Source of the DNA: Bacillota bacterium
GTDB taxonomy: Bacteria; Bacillota; Sulfobacillia; Sulfobacillales; JAIMBI01
DNA length: 64,000 nt
Direction: 5' to 3'
NCBI GenBank assembly: GCA_021797815.1
Contig: JAJZYZ010000005.1
Location: 10,469 to 74,468 of the forward strand
The notes beneath the pieces are model-generated. The model was not told where the DNA came from, did no database searches, and worked only from the letters and a program-made list of their open reading frames with translations. Of the stretch, positions 11,689 to 28,216 are shown piece after piece; the first letter of the stretch is position 1, and every line of letters begins with the position of its first letter. The position numbers were made by a program, and so were the translations under genes.

Positions 11689-12229
11689 ATGGCTCGGGCC
11701 GGCTGACGCCCGGGCAGCACTCGCGCATCAGCTGGCGCGAGTGCCCGCCCCACACGCTTTTCTTGCGACGGCGGTGTGTCCGGTGATGGCCAAAAGCCCG
11801 GTTGCACCGCCAGGCAGCAGCAGGTGATTTGGACCTCACATCTCCTGAAGGGTGACACGACGTCGCGCGGCCGCAGGCACCGGGCTCCGCCCTATTGGCC
11901 GCGCGCGATACGGCTACGAATGATCTCGGGGACAGCATCCACACGCTCGCGGGCCCGGATCCTGCACGACGCGCATGAATAGGCTCCTGCCCGCCCGGAC
12001 AGAACCGCGGCCGCGGTGCCCACGGGCTCGAGAAGTCAGGGTCTGCCGACGCGGGGCCAGCTCGGCTGCGAAGTGCGGCGGCGGGCGCCGCTGGTTCGAC
12101 CTACCGGGTCGGTTCGGCCGCCCTCTTCCGACGCTCAGCCGGCCGGTACACCGATTCCGGACTCCCCTGGTCTGACGACGACGCTCAGGTGTCCAGGCGG
12201 TGAACACGCGTGCACCGTGCCGGCACGCG

Positions 12230-12258
12230 TTGATCTTCGCCCGGGCCGATGCTATAGT
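12230..12258 (+). promoter_or_regulatory. Sigma-A-type promoter for the riboswitch-RLP operon
   Basis: TTGATC, 17 nt, TATAGT with an upstream TG (extended -10). Lies about 25 nt before the riboswitch P1 stem. Confidence 0.5.
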
Positions 12259-12283
12259 GACCGCAACTTCATAGCGCTTCCAC

Positions 12284-12434
12284 CTTTATCAAGACAGGCA
12301 GAGGGATCGGCCCGATGATGCCTGGGCAACCGGCGCACGACGCGTGCGGTGCCAATTCCGACGGCGAGGACGCCGACAGATGAGGGGGGAACCGGAGCCC
12401 TGCGCGCTGCGGCCCTCCTGGGGCCGCTTTTTTC
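12284..12434 (+). promoter_or_regulatory. SAM-I (S-box) riboswitch with intrinsic terminator
   Basis: CTTTATCAAGACAGGCAGAGGGATCGGCCCGATGATGCCTGGGCAACC...GGTGCCAATTCCGAC...AGATGAGG matches the S-box core. It is followed by GCGGCCC-TCCT-GGGCCGC plus TTTTTT (12408-12434). Confidence 0.85.
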
Positions 12435-12457
12435 ATGGACGAAAGGACGTGGGGGTC

Positions 12458-13630
12458 ATGGGGGACGCAAGCCAGCAGACGGGCGAGTTCGAGGCCGTCT
12501 ACCGCGTGCAGGGGAGACGGCCCCTTGACGGGGACGCGGCCAGCAGCACGAAGAGTAAGCCCGCGGGCGCGCTTTCCCCGAAGGATGTCCCGACGCCTCC
12601 CGGCGGTCGGGTGCTGGAAGTTCGCGACGGGGGCGACGGGCTTTACGTGCGGGTGGCCATCCCCTTGCCGGTTCCCGCGGCTCCCGCGGCCATCGCCAAT
12701 CTTCTCCTGGGCTCGTGGACGGCGGGGTCCTGTGTGCGGATCCTGCACGTGGAGCTCCCGACGGGGCCCGCCCGGCATTTGCCCGGGCCGCGGTACGGGG
12801 TGCCGGAGCTCCGCCGGCGCCTTGCAGCCCGGTTCCGCCCCCTCCTCCTCGCTACGATCGCGGAGCCATCCGGAGGGGATCTCGACACGTGGGCCGCCAC
12901 GCTTCGCGCCGAGTGGATGGCTGGCGTCGACATCCTCGTCGAGGCGGGGGACCAGGGCCCTGCCGACTGGTCGCGTACCCAGCGCCGAATCGATCGGGCC
13001 CGACGGGAGGCCGAAGCGTTGGCACGGGATGCGGCTCGGCGGCCGCTCTACGCTGTCCGTCTCGCGGCATCGGGACCCGATTTCGCAGAGCGGGTCCGGC
13101 GTCTTGTCGACGCGGGCGCCGAAGCCCTGACGGTCGGGTGGACCGTAGGAGACCTTGATGCGCTGGCAGCGGTGGCCGCGCGTCCGGGGGGACCGGTGCT
13201 GCTGGCCGGAGCCAGGATCGCCGCACAGTCCTCGGGAGTCCTGGCGCCATCGGTGCTTTTCGGCGAGCTGGCGCGGGCCGCCGGGGCCGACGTTTCGGGA
13301 TACGCGGGTACTGGCCCCGATGGGCAGGCGGCACCGCTGTCGGCGACGGAACAGGCGTCGGTGGGTGCGGCGCTGGCCGCGCCCACAAGCCGGCGTGCCG
13401 CCTGGGCCGCGCCGTCGCTCGGCATTCATCCCGGGGCCCTTCCGACCCTTGTGCGGGAGTTGGGCCCGGACATCGTGGTAGACGCGACGGCCGCGATTCA
13501 GGACCATCCCGGAGGTCCACGGGCGGGCGCAGCCGCGTTTATCCAGGCGTTTGACCGCCTGTCCGGGAGCATCGGCCCGCTTCCGGACGAGCTGGCGCAG
13601 GCGCTCGCGCGCTGGGGGGGCGCGGCGTGA
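12458..13630 (+). CDS. Divergent RuBisCO large-subunit-like protein (type IV RLP-like) lacking canonical active-site residues
   Basis: RuBisCO-like blocks: GPRYGVPELRRRL..RPLLLATI, AGVDILVEAGD (where the family has GG-x-D-x-x-KDDE), PSLGIHPGALP and DHPGGPRAGAAAF. Start at ATG 12458 after AAAGGACGTGGGGG. Confidence 0.75.
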   Translation: MGDASQQTGEFEAVYRVQGRRPLDGDAASSTKSKPAGALSPKDVPTPPGGRVLEVRDGGDGLYVRVAIPLPVPAAPAAIANLLLGSWTAGSCVRILHVELPTGPARHLPGPRYGVPELRRRLAARFRPLLLATIAEPSGGDLDTWAATLRAEWMAGVDILVEAGDQGPADWSRTQRRIDRARREAEALARDAARRPLYAVRLAASGPDFAERVRRLVDAGAEALTVGWTVGDLDALAAVAARPGGPVLLAGARIAAQSSGVLAPSVLFGELARAAGADVSGYAGTGPDGQAAPLSATEQASVGAALAAPTSRRAAWAAPSLGIHPGALPTLVRELGPDIVVDATAAIQDHPGGPRAGAAAFIQAFDRLSGSIGPLPDELAQALARWGGAA

Positions 13631-14856
13631 TGCGAAATGTAGAGCCGGATGGGGAGCCGTCCTCATCCCTCATCGGCGGGTTACGGCTGGCCCGGCGCAT
13701 GGGGGCCCTGCCGGAGCAGTTTTTTTCGACCTTGGTGGCGAAGACCGAGGCCCGCGTCGCGGCGGGGCATGACGTCATCAATCTCGGTCAGGGAAACCCT
13801 ATCGACGAGACCCCGCCGCACATCGTGGACCGCCTCCGATCCATGGCGGGGGAGCTTCGCTACCAGCGCTACGTGCCGTTTTCCGGGCTTTCCGAATTGA
13901 AGGCTTCGGCGGCGCGCTGGTACGCCGCCCGCTACGGCGTCCAGCTTGATCCGGTGCGGGAGATCGCGATCACCATGGGCATGAAGGTTGCACTGCAAGA
14001 GATATCGCTCATGGTGTTGAATCCCGGGGAGGAAGCGCTAGTGGCCGATCCCGGTTATCCCGACTACTGGAGCGGAATCGCGCTGGCCGGTGGGATTCGG
14101 CGTTCGCTTCCGCTTCTGCCCGCCAACGGATTTCAGCCCGCATGGGATGCGGCGCCCGCGTCGCGGCTCGTGTTCTTGAACTATCCGCACAACCCGACCG
14201 GGGCCCTTGCCGGACCGGACACGTTTTCGGGAGCCGTCGCCTACGCCCGCCGCTCCGGAGCGGTCATCGTGCATGACCTCGCCTATGGCGACATCGTATT
14301 TGACGGCCGTCCGGCGACCTCCTTTCTGGCCGAGCCGGGGGCACGGGCCGTGGGCCTCGAGCTTACGTCGTTCTCAAAGTCCTACAACATGGCCGGCTGG
14401 CGGCTCGGTCTCGCGGCCGGCAGCGGCGAGCTCATCGCGGGGCTGGAGACGATCCAGGACCATCTTCATTGCAGCCAGTTCGGCGCCATTCAGCAAGCAG
14501 GCATCGCGGCTTTGGAGAGTCCGTCCGCGGTGGTCGCGGGGCAGGCTCTCCGCTATCAGAGGCGGCGGGACGCCCTTGTCGAGGGACTTCGACAGGCTGG
14601 CTGGGAGGTGGCGCCGCCAGGCGGCGGGATATTCTGCTGGGCGCCGGTACCGGCCGGGGGTGATGCGGTGACGTTCGCGAACTTCCTCCTGGAACGCGCC
14701 GATGTGGTGGTAGCGCCTGGCGTTGGCTTCGGACGGTTCGGCGCGGGATACGTCCGGCTGTCGCTGACGGCCCCGGCCGCGCGGCTTGAAGAGGCGGCCC
14801 GGCGCATCGGCGACGTGCTGCCTGCCTGGCGGGACGGCGGGTCGCCAGACGGATAG
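13627..14856 (+). CDS. Class I/II PLP-dependent aminotransferase (MtnE / LL-DAP-aminotransferase-like)
   Basis: NLGQGNP, YPHNPTG and SFSKSYNMAGWRLG (PLP lysine). The GTG start overlaps the RLP stop (GTGA). An internal start is possible. Confidence 0.88.
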   Translation: MMRNVEPDGEPSSSLIGGLRLARRMGALPEQFFSTLVAKTEARVAAGHDVINLGQGNPIDETPPHIVDRLRSMAGELRYQRYVPFSGLSELKASAARWYAARYGVQLDPVREIAITMGMKVALQEISLMVLNPGEEALVADPGYPDYWSGIALAGGIRRSLPLLPANGFQPAWDAAPASRLVFLNYPHNPTGALAGPDTFSGAVAYARRSGAVIVHDLAYGDIVFDGRPATSFLAEPGARAVGLELTSFSKSYNMAGWRLGLAAGSGELIAGLETIQDHLHCSQFGAIQQAGIAALESPSAVVAGQALRYQRRRDALVEGLRQAGWEVAPPGGGIFCWAPVPAGGDAVTFANFLLERADVVVAPGVGFGRFGAGYVRLSLTAPAARLEEAARRIGDVLPAWRDGGSPDG

Positions 14857-15348
14857 CGGTTCCCGCGGCCGGGCCGTTTCCCGGAGCCCGGCCCGCGCCC
14901 CCAGCGCTCAGAGTCCACCGGGCGGCCTGTGAGTGAGTGCCAGTTCTTGGACTCAGGCATATCGCGGGAGGAAAAGGGGTTGGAACGAGTTGGATCGGGT
15001 TGGAAGGGGAGAGACCCTTCCTCCCAGAGTTCTGGACCTCGACACACCATCCACTGAAGCCGGGACGACGTCCGCGACGGCCCCAAGGTCTTCGGCGCCT
15101 TCATGACCCGCTCGCCCATTACGGTCGCCGACGCTTCTCTAACGTGCATGCCTGGTCGCCCGCGAAGCGAAGAGCGTTCTCGAGATCCATCGGAACGAAC
15201 ACGACCGCCGCGACCGCGGGATCGCCGGAAAGAGAACTCTTCGCGAACCCAGCGACCGGCCGGCTGGGGCCACCGCGCCATCGACGGGCGGACGGCCCGG
15301 GCAGGATTCCCCTTCCCCGACGCGAAGTTCGGCCCGGGAGGAGTCGAT

Positions 15349-15801
15349 TTGGACCTGAACATAGAGGCCGTCATGGCGCGGCTGCCCCATCGCTATCCGT
15401 TCCTGCTTGTAGATCGGGTCATCGAACGCGTCCCGGGGCAGACCGTGCATGCGCTGAAGAATGTCACGGTCAACGAGCCGTTTTTTCAGGGCCACTTTCC
15501 CGGACGTCCCATCATGCCGGGCGTACTCATCCTGGAAGCCATGGCTCAGGCGGCCGGGCTCGCCCTCGATGACCAGGACGGGGCACCGCTTGGCGTTCTC
15601 ACCGGTGTGGACAAGGCCCGCATCCGGCGGATGGTGACGCCCGGCGACCAGCTGCACCTGCACGCCGCTCTCGTGCGTCAGCGGGGGCGCCTTATGCGGG
15701 CAGAGGTGCGGGCCGAGGTGGATGGCCGCCTCGTGGCCGAGGCCGAAATTCTGTTCATGCTGCTCTTGCCCACCGAAATAGCGGGCGACGGTCCGCAATA
15801 G
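15349..15801 (+). CDS. fabZ: 3-hydroxyacyl-ACP dehydratase FabZ
   Basis: LPHRYPFLLVDRV, VTVNEPFFQGHFPGRPIMPGVLILEAMAQ. The ORF-track start at 15103 adds a non-protein-like extension. TTG 15349 lies 7 nt after GGGAGGAG. Confidence 0.9.
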   Translation: MDLNIEAVMARLPHRYPFLLVDRVIERVPGQTVHALKNVTVNEPFFQGHFPGRPIMPGVLILEAMAQAAGLALDDQDGAPLGVLTGVDKARIRRMVTPGDQLHLHAALVRQRGRLMRAEVRAEVDGRLVAEAEILFMLLLPTEIAGDGPQ

Positions 15802-18360: not shown

Positions 18361-18756
18361 ATGATGTCGAAGTATCTGTGGCCGATCACCACGATGGGAC
18401 TCGTGCTGCTGATGGGAGTGGCCCTTCTGACCGCGCCGTTCGGTCTGCACTTCTATGTTTCGGGCCACCATTGGAATCACGCGACCTACTGGACCTTCTG
18501 GACCGGCGTGGGCGTGGTCGTGGTGGCAGCCGTCGGCCTCTACGGCTGGATCACCGGGATAGGCGAAGAAGGACGCCGCATCCTGCCGCCCCGGGCCGAG
18601 GCTGAGGCGACTTCCCAGGATGCACGGGCGGACGCCGGCGGCGCCGCGGCCATGAACGGGGACGAGGCCCTGCAGCAGCTGGCGCGGGCTGTCCTGCGCG
18701 ATCTTAATCAACGGCTCGGCGACGGCGGGACCGGCGCCGGCATGGGGGGGGCTTGA
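18361..18756 (+). CDS. Hypothetical small membrane protein (2 TM plus charged tail)
   Basis: Two hydrophobic helices followed by a charged tail ending ALQQLARAVLRDLNQRL. Paralogous in layout to the next ORF. Possibly SPW-repeat-like (weak). Confidence 0.55.
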   Translation: MMSKYLWPITTMGLVLLMGVALLTAPFGLHFYVSGHHWNHATYWTFWTGVGVVVVAAVGLYGWITGIGEEGRRILPPRAEAEATSQDARADAGGAAAMNGDEALQQLARAVLRDLNQRLGDGGTGAGMGGA

Positions 18757-18757
18757 C

Positions 18758-19228
18758 ATGCGGACGGGGGTTCTGGCATCCGTAATCCTTTTTCTGGCCG
18801 GCATCTGGATTGCCATCATGCCGGAGGTGGCCGGATTCCACCCTGCATCCGGCAATCCCTGGACCACACCATCACTGGTGGCGGCGGTCCTGGGCGGCGG
18901 TATCGCGATTGCCGCGCTCATCGGGCTCGTCGGCTTCTTCGGCCAGCTGCTGCGGCAGCATGAAGAGATGCTGCGTCAGGCCGCGAAAGCCCGGGAGGCA
19001 GAGGACGAGGCGCGCAAGCGGGCGCAGTCGACCGAGCCTCCCGCCGGCGGCGGTGACGGCGTCCGTGCCCTGTCGGACAGCCGGGAAGCCAGCCTGCGCC
19101 GGCTGTCGCGTGTGGAACGCGCCCAGGAGCGTACCTCCACGCGCCCCGACGACGATGCGCACGAACTTGCGTTGAAAGAACTGGCGGAGACCATCTTGAA
19201 GGACCTTCAGAAGTCTCAGGCCCATTGA
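18758..19228 (+). CDS. Hypothetical small membrane protein (2 TM plus charged tail), paralogue of preceding ORF
   Basis: Same architecture. Tail ends ALKELAETILKDLQKSQ. Start 1 nt after the previous stop. Confidence 0.55.
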   Translation: MRTGVLASVILFLAGIWIAIMPEVAGFHPASGNPWTTPSLVAAVLGGGIAIAALIGLVGFFGQLLRQHEEMLRQAAKAREAEDEARKRAQSTEPPAGGGDGVRALSDSREASLRRLSRVERAQERTSTRPDDDAHELALKELAETILKDLQKSQAH

Positions 19229-19331: not shown

Positions 19332-19362
19332 TTTCGCCGATCGCCGGATAAAGAGTCTGGCG

Positions 19363-19509
19363 CCTCATCAAGAGAGGTGGAGGGTTCGGGCCCGATGAAG
19401 CCCGGCAACCGGAGCGTGGCTCACGGTGCTAAACCCCGCACGGCCTGGCCGTGAGGGATGAGAAGAAATGGAAATTTCGCCTCTCCCTGTGTGTGGGAGA
19501 GGTTTTTTT
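19363..19509 (+). promoter_or_regulatory. SAM-I (S-box) riboswitch with intrinsic terminator
   Basis: CCTCATCAAGAGAGGTGGAGGGTTCGGGCCCGATGAAGCCCGGCAACC...GGTGCTAAACCCCGC...GGGATGAGAAG. Terminator CTCTCCC-TGTGTG-TGGGAGAG plus TTTTTTT (19480-19509). Confidence 0.92.
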
Positions 19510-19526: not shown

Positions 19527-20726
19527 ATGGGCGACGGGAAGAACCGGACCCTCTTCACGTCAGAGTCGGTGACCGAGGGCCATCCTGACAAGCTGGCCGA
19601 CCAGATCTCCGATGCGGTGCTGGACAGTCTTTTGGCGCAAGACACCGAGTCTCGGGTAGCGGTTGAGACCCTGGTCACCACCGGACTGGCCCTGGTGGCC
19701 GGTCAGGTATCGAGCGCGGGCTACACCGACATTCCCGGTGTGGTGCGCGAGGTGGTGCGCCGGGTCGGATACACCGACCCGGCCATGGGTGTGGACTGCG
19801 ACACGATGGCGGTCCTGACCAGCATCGACGAGCAGTCGAGTGACATCCGCATTGGCGTGGAGCAGGCAGTGGAGAGCCGGGCGGGAGAGGCGGACGCGCT
19901 GTCCCGGATCGGCGCGGGCGACCAGGGCATGGTGTTCGGCTACGCCTGCGAGGAGACGCCGGAGCTGATGCCGCTTCCCATCTCCCTGGCTCACCGGCTT
20001 TCGCGGCGTCTCGCCGAGGTGCGGAAGTCGGGACGCCTGCCGTTCATCTGGCCCGACGGCAAGACGCAGGTGACGGTGGCGTACGAGGACAGCCGTCCGG
20101 TGGCGGTCACGGCGGTCGTGGTGTCGACCCAGCACGCTCCGTCCGTGAGCCAGGGGGAACTTAAAGATGCGGTGCAGAGCCTGGTGATCGAGCCGGCGCT
20201 GGGCGACTGGTGGGGGAGCCACGTCCGGGTGCTGGTCAATCCCACCGGCCGCTTCGTGGTGGGGGGGCCACACGGCGACACCGGCCTTACTGGCCGCAAG
20301 ATTATCGTCGACACCTACGGCGGGATGGCCCGGCACGGGGGCGGCGCTTACTCCGGCAAGGATCCGACCAAGGTGGACCGCTCCGCCTCCTATGCTGCGC
20401 GCTGGGTGGCAAAGAACCTGGTGGCGGCCGGACTCGCCAGTCGGGCGGAAGTCCAGGTGGCCTACGCCATCGGAGTGGCCCATCCCGTCTCCGTATCGGT
20501 TGACACTTTCAAAACCGGCGCGGTGCCAGACAGCGTCCTTGCCGCCATCGTGGAACGGGTTTTCGACCTCCGTCCGCTGGCCATCATCCGAACGCTGAAG
20601 CTTGACCGGCCCATCTATCTCCCGACGGCCACCTACGGCCACTTTGGCCGCACAGATCTCGACCTGCCCTGGGAGTCGCTCGACCGGGTCGAGGCTCTGA
20701 CGCGGGAGGCGCGCCTCTCCATCTAG
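19527..20726 (+). CDS. metK: S-adenosylmethionine synthetase
   Basis: [52 protein letters not shown]. Start at ATG 19527 downstream of the riboswitch terminator. Confidence 0.97.
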
Positions 20727-27081: not shown

Positions 27082-28216
27082 ATGTTATTGAATGATGCCT
27101 TGATCCTGCGGCGCGACGAGCTCCAGGAGCTCCTCGCGCGAGTCAGGGGGTCTCTTTGACCCGGCCCAGCGCGCCACACAGATTGAACAGTTGGAGAAGG
27201 ACATGTCCCGACCGGGCTTCTGGGACAGCCCGGAGGCTGCCCAGAACCTTCTGAAGACCCTCCGTCGGGTGCGGGTGCCGCTTGACCGCTATCAGCCGCT
27301 GGCAAGACGGGTCGAAGACTTTGATGAGCTTCTGGCCCTGGCGTCGGCCGAGGATGACGCCGAAACCTTGAGGGCGCTGGAAGCCGAGGGGCAGGCTGTT
27401 CTGGAGGAGCTTCAGGACCTGGAACTCTCCCTCATCCTCACCGGACCGTACGACGCGGAGTCGGCCATCGTGACCCTCCACGCCGGCGCCGGGGGCACCG
27501 AAGCTCAGGATTGGGCCGAGATGCTGGTGAGGATGTACCTGCGCTGGGCGGAGCGCCACGACTTTGAGACCACCATTCTAGACACGCTGCCCGGGGAAGA
27601 GGCGGGAGTCAAGAGCGCGACCATAGCCGTCCGCGGCGACAACGCCTACGGCTTTTTACGCGCCGAGCGAGGGGTGCACCGCCTGGTGCGGATCTCGCCC
27701 TTTGACGCGTCCGGCCGCCGTCACACGTCGTTTGCCTCCGTAGATGTGGTGCCGGACCTGAAGGACGATGCGGAGGTGGAGATAGGCCCCGACGATCTCC
27801 GGATCGACACGTTTCGCGCCAGCGGTGCCGGGGGTCAGCACGTGAACAAGACGGAGTCTGCCATCCGCATTACCCATATCCCGTCCGGTATCGTGGTGAC
27901 CTGCCAGAACGAACGCTCCCAGCACGCCAACCGTGACACCGCCATGCGGGTCCTGCGCGGAAAGCTTGCTGAGTTGAAGGAGCTCGAACGGCAGCGAGAG
28001 ATGAACAAGATCCGCGGGGTCCAGCAGGACATAGGCTTCGGCAGTCAGATACGGTCGTATGTGTTCCAGCCCTACACCGTCGTGCGCGACCATCGTACCC
28101 GCACCGAGGTGGGGAACGTCCAGGGGGTAATGGACGGGGACATCGACCCTTTCATCCGCTCCTATCTGCAGACGGAGGCGCGGGGCGCCCTGGTGCTTGA
28201 GACACCAGGTGAGTAA
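27082..28216 (+). CDS. prfB: Peptide chain release factor 2, expressed by programmed +1 frameshift (27082-27156 joined to 27158-28216)
   Basis: Frame 0 gives MLLNDALILRRDELQELLARVRGSL then TGA. The +1 frame continues DPAQRATQIEQLEKDMSRPGFWD... with SPF (RISPFD) and GGQ (GAGGQHVNKTESAIRITH) motifs. Confidence 0.95.
27143..27160 (+). other. RF2 autoregulatory +1 frameshift site
   Basis: AGGGGG (internal SD-like) followed by TCT CTT TGA C, the canonical CTT-TGA-C shift site. Confidence 0.9.

What the first reader, a model, noticed from the sequence alone, without database searches (positions are those of the whole stretch)
12230..14856. SAM-riboswitch-controlled RuBisCO-like protein lacking Lys201/Asp203/Glu204, coupled to an aminotransferase
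A promoter and a complete S-box riboswitch with terminator (12284-12434) precede a 390-aa protein with clear RuBisCO large-subunit blocks: GPRYGVPELRRRL..RPLLLATI, PSLGIHPGALP and DHPGGPRAGAAAF. The catalytic positions are replaced. Where RuBisCO and MtnW carry TIKPKLGL, this protein has TIAEPSGG, so Lys175 and Lys177 are lost. Where they carry GG-x-D-x-x-KDDE, it has AGVDILVEAGD, so the carbamylated Lys201 and the Mg ligands Asp203 and Glu204 are lost. The His294 region reads LLAGARI. In B. subtilis an S-box controls the methionine-salvage RLP MtnW, so SAM control suggests a sulfur or methionine-salvage role. However, the canonical enolase and isomerase chemistry needs the carbamate-Mg site that is missing here. 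The aminotransferase start overlaps the RLP stop (GTGA), which implies one functional unit. No mtnK/A/B/D/X genes are nearby. This may be an uncharacterised RLP clade with different chemistry or a non-catalytic role.
Basis: partly seen in the sequence, partly recalled or inferred. Interest (0 to 1): 0.72.

Follow-up and report, generated by a model that had tools for sequence, protein, structure and literature searches.

The report
Dead MtnW relic beside MtnE aminotransferase
This is a RuBisCO-like protein that has lost its whole catalytic site. It is the leftover first gene of a SAM-controlled methionine-salvage operon (mtnWXBDE) whose three middle genes were deleted, yet its C-terminal third is still kept by natural selection.

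Summary
A SAM-I riboswitch with terminator (12283-12433) precedes a 390-aa RuBisCO-like protein (RLP, 12458-13630). The RLP stop codon overlaps the start of a class-I aminotransferase (13627/13630-14856).

The RLP has the MtnW fold but lacks every catalytic residue. It has no lysine after residue 42.

The context explains this. A syntenic relative (L014) carries S-box-mtnW-mtnX-mtnB-mtnD-mtnE between the same flanking genes, and its MtnW is intact. In the window lineage mtnXBD were deleted without trace, leaving mtnW and mtnE.

The aminotransferase tree, the flanking genes and the different deletion junctions indicate at least two independent deletions. Each one kept a full-length but catalytically dead mtnW.

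The relic evolves about three times faster than the aminotransferase. Its N-terminal domain is nearly neutral (dN/dS 0.5-0.8). Its last ~130 codons are as constrained as ordinary genes (dN/dS 0.14), and this holds in two separate dead lineages.

It is therefore an orphaned, non-catalytic MtnW descendant, not a new enzyme chemistry. Part of the protein still does something unknown. The group is very rare: four 90% clusters among 5.8 billion proteins. Interest is moderate, and this is a new variant of a known kind.

The parts
12230..12258 (+). Sigma-70-type promoter-like site (TTGATC, 17-nt spacer with TG, TATAGT)
   Evidence: the only hit in 11800-15300, where 0.2 are expected from shuffles. 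This is a consensus match only; function is inferred.
12283..12386 (+). SAM-I (S-box) riboswitch aptamer
   Evidence: RF00162, 84.9 bits (gathering score 44.4), full-length model 1-108; the minimum-energy fold shows the four-way junction. Orthologous aptamers precede the RLP in L001, L003, L004, L013, L014 and L017.
12409..12433 (+). Intrinsic terminator of the riboswitch expression platform (8-bp GC-rich stem, then TTTTTT)
   Evidence: stem 12409-12427 plus T-run; hairpin present in the MFE and centroid structures.
12458..13630 (+). Catalytically dead RuBisCO-like protein, 390 aa: a relic orthologue of MtnW (DK-MTP-1-P enolase)
   Evidence: Similarity: best PDB sequence matches are MtnW-type RLPs 4nas, 3fk4, 2oek and 2zvi, E 3e-31 to 2.5e-27. 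AF2 gives pLDDT 90 and pTM 0.90. Foldseek top hits are MtnW structures with TM about 0.75. Lost residues: FGK to GS86, FK to IA135, VKDDE to V161-E-A-G164, AHPA absent, NAGG to DATA. Orthology: synteny with the intact mtnW of L014. Selection: dN/dS 0.32 overall and 0.14 in codons 263-390.
13627..13632 (+). Gene junction GTGATG. The RLP stop (TGA, 13628-13630) overlaps two candidate aminotransferase starts, GTG 13627 and ATG 13630.
   Evidence: Genuine mtnW-mtnX junctions overlap in the same way: 4 nt as called in L005, L006, L011 and L012, and ATGA in L014 by my reading of its sequence (the gene caller places the L014 mtnX start 19 nt upstream). The run of G encoded by ...WGG... upstream could serve as the Shine-Dalgarno (inferred).
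13627..14856 (+). MtnE-type class-I PLP aminotransferase (409 aa from the GTG, 408 aa from the ATG); the PLP lysine lies in SFSKSYNMAGWR
   Evidence: Pfam Aminotran_1_2 at 183 bits. The best NCBIfam model is PRK08068 'transaminase' at 440 bits, below its cutoff of 494. Homologues at 53-54% identity are named L-glutamine:4-methylsulfanyl-2-oxobutanoate aminotransferase by JGI. It is 66% identical to the last gene of the L014 mtnWXBDE operon. dN/dS is 0.095.
13630..13700 (+). N-terminal extension of the aminotransferase reading frame; probably a deletion scar that keeps the first codons of mtnX (suggestive only)
   Evidence: The window reads MRNVEPDGE and L014 MtnX reads MRTNEPRQG, in both cases directly after the mtnW stop. 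The window and L001 junctions align end to end. Similarity to L014 resumes near mtnE codon 6. The match is short and is not statistically secure.

Best explanation
The locus is a reduced methionine-salvage operon. The ancestor had S-box riboswitch, then mtnW (RLP enolase), mtnX (phosphatase), mtnB (dehydratase), mtnD (dioxygenase) and mtnE (transaminase). In this lineage mtnX, mtnB and mtnD were deleted.

How it works: when SAM is high the riboswitch terminates transcription at 12409-12433. When SAM is low, read-through gives one mRNA for the RLP and the aminotransferase. In this lineage the aminotransferase appears to start at the old mtnW/mtnX overlap. The aminotransferase is the enzyme the operon still exists to express.

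Without its pathway, MtnW lost all catalytic residues and can no longer be a DK-MTP-1-P enolase or any carbamate-Mg enzyme.

The relic has not been discarded. The full-length frame survives in every lineage examined. The N-terminal domain drifts almost neutrally. The last ~130 residues (barrel strands 6-8 and the C-terminal helices) remain under purifying selection as strong as in ordinary genes.

The most likely reading is therefore a non-catalytic protein. Its C-terminal part keeps a structural, partner-binding or ligand-binding role that predates the loss of the pathway.

Shown here: the riboswitch, the fold, the loss of catalytic residues, the ancestral operon in a syntenic relative, the absence of mtnXBD, and the selection pattern.

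Inferred: the order of events, the independence of the deletions, translational coupling, and any residual function.
For: Riboswitch and terminator:
-.

Fold and dead site:
- phmmer to MtnW structures, E 3e-31.
- AF2 pLDDT 90 and Foldseek TM about 0.75 to 2oek, 2zvi and 4nas.
- Motif columns.
- No lysine after residue 42.

Ancestral state:
- L014 carries HtrA, S-box, RLP, HAD, Aldolase_II, ARD, aminotransferase, SpoIIT, M23, SpoIIID, MarR, MFS and two small ORFs, then a second SAM riboswitch beyond them.
- Its RLP keeps FGK, FK, VKDDE, AHPA and NAGG, and has the same C-terminus ...PDELAxALAxWGGAA.
- The window has the same flanks: HtrA, MarR, MFS, two small ORFs, then S-box-metK.
- Other intact relatives are followed by HAD/MtnX or by the full XBD set.

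Loss:
- No MtnX, MtnB or MtnD remnant by tblastn in the window or in the dead loci.

Recurrence:
- In the aminotransferase NJ tree, intact L014 groups with dead L004/L013 at 100% bootstrap. Window, L001 and L002 form a second clade, also at 100%.
- HtrA, SpoIIT, MarR and MFS identities agree with this grouping.
- The junctions differ: overlapping in window/L001, a 96-nt spacer with the native mtnE SD and GTG in L004/L013, and 335-381 nt in L002/L023.

Selection:
- Window vs L001: RLP dN/dS 0.32 (p 2e-20 for fewer nonsynonymous than synonymous changes per site), against 0.095 for the aminotransferase at equal dS.
- By region in that pair: 0.74 and 0.51 in the N-terminal part, falling to 0.14 in codons 263-390 (p 5e-16).
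- L002 vs L023, at unsaturated dS 0.15: 0.82 in the first 100 codons (not significant) and 0.14 in the last 130 (p 2e-6).
- dS is not reduced in the constrained part, so the constraint acts on the protein.
Against: - There is no direct evidence that the RLP is expressed or folds. The high AF2 confidence leans on an alignment made mostly of canonical RLPs.
- Signs of relaxation: between the window and a 99.8%-identical metagenome contig, 9 of 27 differences fall in the RLP (p 2e-4), and about 7 of these are nonsynonymous. GC at second codon positions is unusually high (0.61).
- Even the phosphate-site glycines have changed (NAGG to DATA; PSAG to PSLG).
- The RLP NJ tree weakly groups all dead sequences together (61-78% bootstrap). 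Taken at face value that would mean a single loss. I attribute it to long-branch attraction, but this is not proven.
- The trees are NJ only, and the Nei-Gojobori estimates are near saturation for the deep pairs.
- Whether these genomes carry mtnK/A/B/C/D elsewhere could not be checked.
Confidence: 0.72

Rival explanations
1. Functionless relic in slow decay. The RLP gene is a pseudogene-in-waiting, kept only because it lies between the riboswitch and mtnE. The apparent constraint would reflect selection against toxic misfolded product or against polarity, not a function of the protein itself.
For: - It evolves about three times faster than its neighbours.
- The N-terminal domain is near neutral.
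- Within-population differences are enriched in the RLP and mostly nonsynonymous.
- Catalytic residues erode progressively and differently in each lineage.
- A PSHPSH repeat has expanded in the loop-6 area of L002/L023.
- The group is tiny.
Against: - mtnX, mtnB and mtnD vanished without trace in the same lineages, while the RLP frame stays intact over dS 0.9-1.5 with only in-frame gaps.
- dN/dS is 0.14 in the last ~130 codons in two separate dead lineages, with normal dS. That is hard to obtain without a protein-level role.
- In L004/L013 and L002/L023 mtnE has its own SD and a 96-381 nt spacer, so coupling cannot be the reason there.
Confidence: 0.2
2. Translated spacer. Selection acts mainly on keeping the upstream ORF open, so that ribosomes reach the overlapping stop/start and Rho-dependent polarity is avoided. 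This would ensure SAM-regulated MtnE synthesis.
For: - The window and L001 share a junction in which the aminotransferase frame is open from a GTG/ATG overlapping the RLP stop. The mtnW-mtnX overlap and the G-rich SD appear to be inherited.
- The frame is intact in all lineages.
Against: - This predicts avoidance of stop codons but dN/dS near 1. The observed gradient down to 0.14 is at the amino-acid level.
- The junction is not conserved in the other dead lineages.
Confidence: 0.15
3. A new RLP enzyme with different, metal-independent chemistry acting with the aminotransferase on a sulfur or methionine-related metabolite.
For: - SAM control and conserved pairing with the aminotransferase hold across every dead lineage examined.
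- The C-terminal barrel half is conserved, including PSxG[IV]HPG and HPGGxRAG.
- About one in seven RLP-superfamily representatives also lack the Lys201 equivalent, so Lys-less RLPs exist elsewhere.
Against: - Pocket positions are not conserved among the dead lineages: Lys201 position V/V/T/Q, Asp203 position A/G/D/R, Glu204 position G/R/P/E, Lys175 position A/D/K/A, His294 position absent/absent/H/Q.
- The N-terminal domain, which completes the active site of the partner subunit, is nearly neutral and partly replaced by a low-confidence segment.
- The intact orthologue sits in a complete canonical pathway operon, so the pairing with the aminotransferase is inherited, not newly evolved.
Confidence: 0.06

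Closest known systems
MtnW / YkrW, 2,3-diketo-5-methylthiopentyl-1-phosphate enolase of Bacillus subtilis, Geobacillus kaustophilus and Alicyclobacillus (form IV-YkrW RLP; PDB 2zvi, 2oek, 4nas)
   Same: - Same fold and the closest sequence relatives.
- Same position as first gene behind an S-box leader.
- Orthologous by synteny to an intact mtnW.
- Same C-terminal motif as the nearest intact relatives.
   Different: - All catalytic residues are gone, including the KDDE motif that PMC3698126 calls catalytic for MtnW.
- There is no lysine in the barrel.
- It scores 109-140 bits against NCBIfam MtnW models whose cutoffs are 409-514.
- No mtnX, mtnB or mtnD follows it.
The Bacillus mtnWXBD operon with S-box control, plus mtnE (PMC3698126 and PMC6522883; regulation from general knowledge of the S-box regulon)
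   Same: - A SAM-I riboswitch with terminator lies in front of mtnW.
- The relative L014 has W-X-B-D-E in this order.
   Different: - Here only the first and last genes remain.
- In this high-GC lineage mtnE belongs to the same operon. In B. subtilis it is a separate neighbouring gene (from memory).
Pseudoenzymes derived from metabolic enzymes (general concept)
   Same: - The enzyme fold is retained with the catalytic residues lost.
- Purifying selection persists on part of the protein.
   Different: - No partner, ligand or regulatory role has been identified here.
- A full-text search found no paper that links RuBisCO-like proteins with the term pseudoenzyme.
Other RLP-superfamily proteins without the carbamylated lysine (uncharacterised cluster representatives P0017, P0024, P0053, P0064, P0075, P0088, P0129, P0144 and others)
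   Same: The Lys201 position holds M, Q, F, V, E, T or S.
   Different: - Most of them keep the D-D-E metal ligands and Lys175.
- They belong to other branches (24-31% identity to the window protein).
- Their contexts were not examined.

Membership tests
RuBisCO large-subunit superfamily (form IV, RLP) | N-terminal alpha/beta domain plus C-terminal TIM barrel of the large subunit; significant sequence similarity | tested here: met
   phmmer E 3e-31 to 4nas. AF2 pLDDT 90. Foldseek probability 1.00 and TM 0.69-0.77 to MtnW, type III and RLP structures. The Pfam PF00016 match is only 18.9 bits, below the gathering score of 30.1.
MtnW (DK-MTP-1-P enolase, form IV-YkrW) | Score above the curated equivalog cutoffs (TIGR03332, NF007095) | tested here: not met
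   109.1 bits against a cutoff of 513.6, and 139.6 bits against 409.
MtnW (DK-MTP-1-P enolase, form IV-YkrW) | Catalytic residues: general-base Lys (FGK), Lys175 equivalent (FK), carbamylated Lys and Mg ligands (KDDE), His294 equivalent (AHPA) | tested here: not met
   The window has S86, A135, V161-E162-A163-G164 and no His in residues 108-323.
MtnW (DK-MTP-1-P enolase, form IV-YkrW) | Operon association with mtnX, mtnB and mtnD | tested here: not met
   These genes are absent from the window and from the dead loci. They are present in the syntenic relative L014 and in L009.
MtnW (DK-MTP-1-P enolase, form IV-YkrW) | Descent from mtnW (orthology by synteny and phylogeny) | tested here: met
   Same flanking genes and the same S-box leader as the L014 mtnW. 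It falls in one group with intact L014, L017 and P0006 at 75% bootstrap.
MtnW (DK-MTP-1-P enolase, form IV-YkrW) | Enolase activity on DK-MTP-1-P | not testable with these tools
   This needs an enzyme assay. Activity is predicted to be absent.
SAM-I riboswitch (RF00162, S-box leader) | Covariance-model score above the gathering threshold, with a four-way junction | tested here: met
   84.9 bits against 44.4, full model; fold.
SAM-I riboswitch (RF00162, S-box leader) | Transcription-terminator expression platform before the regulated ORF | tested here: met
   Hairpin at 12409-12427 followed by T6, 25 nt before the ATG. SAM binding itself was not testable.
MtnE (glutamine:KMTB aminotransferase, class-I PLP fold) | Aminotran_1_2 fold with the PLP lysine; closest family model | tested here: inconclusive
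   PF00155 at 183 bits. The SFSK lysine is present. The best NCBIfam model, PRK08068, scores 440 bits, below its cutoff of 494. Homologues at 53-54% identity are named as the KMTB aminotransferase, but others are named BacF or DAP aminotransferase.
MtnE (glutamine:KMTB aminotransferase, class-I PLP fold) | Orthology to the aminotransferase of a complete mtn operon | tested here: met
   66% identical to the last gene of the L014 mtnWXBDE operon, in the same chromosomal slot.

The most novel reading that the evidence does not exclude
The C-terminal half of MtnW has a second, non-catalytic job, for example binding or stabilising MtnE, or binding a phospho-sugar as a sensor. That job would be worth keeping even when methionine salvage is abandoned, which is why at least two independent operon reductions removed mtnXBD cleanly but kept a full-length dead MtnW. 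If so, this would be the first RuBisCO-fold pseudoenzyme, and it would imply a moonlighting function in canonical MtnW as well.
Probability: 0.35. Interest if true: 0.65.

Novelty: new variant of a known kind. Interest (0 to 1): 0.45.

Why it matters
RuBisCO-like proteins are a classic example of one fold being reused for different carbamate-Mg chemistries. This case shows the opposite trajectory: an RLP caught after its pathway was deleted.

A graded series of active-site erosion is visible across sister lineages:
- VKDDE in the intact relatives;
- VTDDP in L002/L023;
- VQDRE in L004/L013;
- LVEAG in the window.

Half of the protein stays under selection throughout. That makes it a natural experiment on how enzymes become pseudoenzymes. 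It also hints that MtnW may have a function beyond catalysis.

In practice, it warns annotators that 'RuBisCO large subunit-like' or 'MtnW' calls in these Bacillota do not indicate methionine salvage. An S-box-controlled aminotransferase can be the only working remnant of the pathway.

Tried and rejected
- **Pfam alone nearly misses the protein.** The PF00016 match is 18.9 bits, below threshold. NCBIfam and PDB searches were needed.
- **Word-indexed protein searches** found only four clusters. The exhaustive HMMER scan added only the intact-sister fragments P0006 and P0034. The GTDB genome scan found two species. The JGI metagenome scan added one intact relative, L017.
- **Remnants of mtnX/B/D in the spacers.** I searched with tblastn and with sensitive blastn. 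Nothing was found beyond the mtnW 3' end and the mtnE 5' end. The possible mtnX start-codon scar in window/L001 is too short to be secure.
- **The RLP tree as a test of single versus multiple loss.** It gave weak dead-clade monophyly (61-78%), conflicting with the aminotransferase tree and the flanking genes. I judged it unreliable because the dead sequences are fast-evolving.
- **A 'new chemistry' site.** I looked for residues conserved in all dead lineages but not in intact ones. Only scattered parallel changes turned up (GG to AG, L to I, M to L), and no candidate catalytic set.
- **Literature.** No paper on catalytically dead RLPs was found. The Tabita 2007 review is not held.
- **A constraint on the opposite strand** (antisense ORF 12269-13666). 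I rejected this as the usual high-GC artefact. Normal dS in the constrained region also argues against a nucleotide-level constraint.
- **Could not be done.** A complex prediction with the aminotransferase was not possible with these tools.


Full report
**1. What is in the sequence**

- A sigma-70-like promoter (TTGATC, 17 nt with TG, TATAGT) lies at 12230-12258.
- It is followed by a full-length SAM-I riboswitch at 12283-12386, scoring 84.9 bits against a gathering score of 44.4.
- An intrinsic terminator follows at 12409-12427 plus T6.
- The minimum-energy fold of 12275-12440 shows the four-way junction and the terminator hairpin.
- The first ORF starts at ATG 12458 and ends at TGA 13630, giving 390 aa.
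- Its stop overlaps GTG 13627 and ATG 13630 of a 408-409-aa class-I aminotransferase that ends at 14856.

**2. The protein is an RLP of the MtnW branch without a catalytic site**

Similarity and fold:

- Sequence search of the PDB gives MtnW-type RLPs as best hits: 4nas at 3e-31, 3fk4, 2oek and 2zvi.
- An AlphaFold2 model built on 72 homologues has pLDDT 90 and pTM 0.90. Only residues about 21-40 are poorly defined.
- Foldseek returns the MtnW structures first, with TM 0.7-0.77.
- NCBIfam MtnW equivalogs match at only 109-140 bits, far below their cutoffs. Pfam RuBisCO_large is below its threshold.

Catalytic positions, from pairwise HMMER alignments that are ungapped across the catalytic motifs and from two MAFFT alignments:

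| Role | Residue in MtnW (RuBisCO numbering where used) | Window protein |
|---|---|---|
| General base | FGK | S86 |
| Lys175 | FK | A135 |
| Carbamylated Lys201 | K of VKDDE | V161 |
| Asp203 | D of VKDDE | A163 |
| Glu204 | E of VKDDE | G164 |
| His294 | AHPA | absent |
| Phosphate-site glycines | NAGG | DATA |

The roles of K201, D203, E204 and H294 are as summarised in PMC8920986. PMC3698126 calls KDDE the catalytic motif of MtnW.

One observation from the sequence is decisive on its own. The protein has only three lysines, at positions 32, 34 and 42. All lie in the low-confidence N-terminal segment, and none is in the barrel. A carbamate-Mg site cannot exist.

**3. How rare it is**

- Two word-indexed searches of 5.8 billion proteins found four 90% clusters of such proteins: P0001 (99% identical to the window), P0002 (60%), P0003 (44%) and P0005 (43%).
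- An exhaustive HMMER scan of 1.84 billion cluster representatives found only three representatives below E 1e-30.
- The scan of 185,579 species genomes found two MAGs, both uncultured Bacillota/Clostridia.
- All members carry the aminotransferase directly downstream. Where the upstream DNA is present, all carry a SAM-I riboswitch.

**4. The context explains the finding**

The closest aminotransferase homologues led to locus L014 (GCA_041825655.1). Its gene order is:

- HtrA
- SAM riboswitch
- RLP
- HAD phosphatase (MtnX)
- class-II aldolase-type dehydratase (MtnB)
- ARD dioxygenase (MtnD)
- aminotransferase (MtnE; 66% identical to the window's)
- SpoIIT, M23 peptidase, SpoIIID, MarR, MFS and two small ORFs, followed by a second SAM riboswitch

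.

The window has the same frame: HtrA, an alpha/beta hydrolase, riboswitch-RLP-aminotransferase, FabZ, MarR, MFS, two small ORFs, then riboswitch-metK.

The L014 RLP keeps FGK, FK, VKDDE, AHPA and NAGG. It shares the group-specific C-terminus PVPDELAxALAxWGGAA.

Other intact relatives are followed by mtnX or by mtnX-mtnB-mtnD: P0006, P0007 and P0008. L017 is also intact, but its contig ends within the RLP, so its downstream genes are unknown.

The window locus is therefore an mtnWXBDE operon from which mtnXBD were removed.

- tblastn with the L014 MtnX, MtnB and MtnD proteins finds no remnant in the 64-kb window or in any dead-RLP locus.
- Pfam and NCBIfam scans of the window's other genes show housekeeping functions only: the atp operon, a two-component system, secA, prfB, uvrABC and others.
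- Several homologues of the aminotransferase are named L-glutamine:4-methylsulfanyl-2-oxobutanoate aminotransferase.
- B. subtilis MtnE is the glutamine transaminase of methionine salvage, and its nearest solved structure is 2O1B (PMC6522883). 2o1b is also among the top PDB matches here.

**5. The reduction probably happened more than once**

- In a bootstrapped NJ tree of the aminotransferases, rooted with more distant homologues, intact L014 (with P0160) is sister to the dead L004/L013 pair at 100%.
- Window, L001/P0155 and L002/P0156 form a second clade, also at 100%.
- Flanking proteins agree. L014-L013 identities are HtrA 72%, SpoIIT 52%, MarR 66% and MFS 86%. Comparisons with the window/L001 lineage give 55-59%, 41-44%, 60-62% and 79%.
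- The deletion junctions differ:
  - In window and L001 the aminotransferase frame is open from a GTG/ATG overlapping the RLP stop. The first ~25 nt resemble the 5' end of L014 mtnX (MRTNEPRQG against MRNVEPDGE).
  - In L004/L013 a 96-nt spacer precedes the native mtnE Shine-Dalgarno and GTG.
  - In L002 and L023 the spacer is 335-381 nt.
- The catalytic positions have decayed to different residues in each lineage: VTDDP with FK and AHPA kept in L002/L023, VQDRE in L004/L013, and LVEAG or LVEGR in window/L001.

Caveat: an NJ tree of the RLPs themselves groups the dead sequences weakly (61-78%). I regard this as long-branch attraction among accelerated sequences, but it leaves a single loss formally possible.

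**6. Selection**

| Comparison | dS | RLP dN/dS | Aminotransferase dN/dS | Other genes |
|---|---|---|---|---|
| Window vs L001 (both dead, sharing DILVE) | 0.93 | 0.32 | 0.095 | HtrA 0.11; alpha/beta hydrolase 0.14 |
| L002 vs L023 | 0.15 (unsaturated) | 0.34 | 0.16 | SpoIIT 0.45 |

Along the gene the ratio falls steeply:

- Window vs L001: 0.74 in residues 1-50, 0.51 in 51-112, about 0.3 in 113-262 and 0.14-0.15 in 263-390.
- L002 vs L023: 0.82 in the first 100 codons and 0.14 in the last 130.
- Fisher tests on the C-terminal parts give p 5e-16 and p 2e-6. The N-terminal part of L002/L023 is indistinguishable from neutral, p 0.79.
- dS is not depressed in the constrained part, so the constraint is on the amino-acid sequence.

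Signs of relaxation are also present:

- 9 of the 27 differences between the window and a 99.8%-identical contig lie in the RLP (p 2e-4), and about 7 of the 9 are nonsynonymous.
- Second-codon-position GC is high.
- A PSHPSH repeat has expanded in the loop-6 area of L002/L023.

**7. Interpretation**

Well supported:

- The operon is SAM-repressed by transcription termination.
- Its surviving enzyme is the MtnE-type aminotransferase.
- The RLP is the orthologue of MtnW.
- The RLP is catalytically dead.

Less certain is why it persists. In the same lineages mtnXBD were removed cleanly, the RLP frame stayed intact, and its C-terminal third remained strongly constrained. This points to a residual non-catalytic function of that part of the protein.

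The alternatives are slow decay, with selection only against a harmful product, and a 'translated spacer' needed for MtnE expression.

New chemistry is unlikely. The pocket is not conserved among the dead lineages. The N-terminal domain, which completes the neighbouring subunit's active site in this superfamily, is drifting.

**8. Comparison with what is known, and novelty**

The closest known system is the S-box-controlled mtnWXBD(+E) methionine-salvage operon of Bacillus and relatives (PMC3698126, PMC6302742).

The protein descends from MtnW but fails the membership tests for the enzyme on score, catalytic residues and pathway context.

Lys201-less proteins occur elsewhere in the superfamily. 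Of 133 cluster representatives, 19 lack the lysine, and KDDH or KDDQ variants are common. Loss of the lysine alone is therefore not unique.

I found no paper describing a catalytically dead RLP or an RLP pseudoenzyme.

I rate this a new variant of a known kind, of moderate interest. It is a clear and possibly recurrent example of an enzyme turning into a partly constrained relic. It is not a new system.

Noticed in passing
window 19362-19464 (riboswitch) and about 19527-20726 (metK): A second SAM-I riboswitch (75.6 bits) lies directly upstream of methionine adenosyltransferase (metK, TIGR01034 at 544 bits). The same pair sits at the same relative position in L003, and a second SAM riboswitch lies there in L014 (its contig ends before any metK).
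   Followed up: partly
window 27154-27160, upstream of ORF 27191-28216: A CTTTGAC motif lies just before a peptide-chain release factor ORF (PCRF and RF-1 domains) whose match starts at profile position 9. This fits the usual programmed +1 frameshift site of prfB. CTTTGAC also occurs 13 times in the window, against 4.8 expected.
   Followed up: partly
L002 about 870-930 and L023 about 860-960 (RLP loop-6 area): A proline/serine/histidine repeat (YPSYPSYPSHPSG in L002; SSPSHPSHPSHPSHPSYPSG in L023) is inserted in the dead RLPs of this lineage, where canonical MtnW has PSPYGS. Its length differs between two 90%-identical proteins.
   Followed up: no
RLP-superfamily representatives P0017, P0024, P0053, P0064, P0075, P0079, P0088, P0109, P0115, P0125, P0126, P0129, P0144, P0146, P0152: About one in seven of 133 RLP cluster representatives lack lysine at the Lys201 position (M, Q, F, V, E, T, S, Y or R). 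Most of them keep the D-D-E ligands. KDDH (30) and KDDQ (15) variants are common. Their contexts were not examined.
   Followed up: no
window 18361-18756 and 18758-19228; L014 12075-12915; L023 7923-8778: Two small adjacent ORFs (about 130 and 155 aa) with no Pfam or NCBIfam match are conserved in position between the MFS transporter and the metK riboswitch in all related loci.
   Followed up: no
window 14857-15370 compared with L013 7192-10294, L014 7198-9575 and L023 2784-4808: Relatives carry the sporulation genes SpoIIT, an M23 peptidase and SpoIIID between the aminotransferase and FabZ/MarR. In the window and in L003, FabZ follows the aminotransferase directly, so this lineage has a second local gene loss or rearrangement.
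   Followed up: no
window 12269-13666, minus strand: A 465-codon antisense ORF spans the whole RLP gene. I treat it as the usual high-GC artefact: GC3 is similar on both strands and no homology was sought.
   Followed up: no
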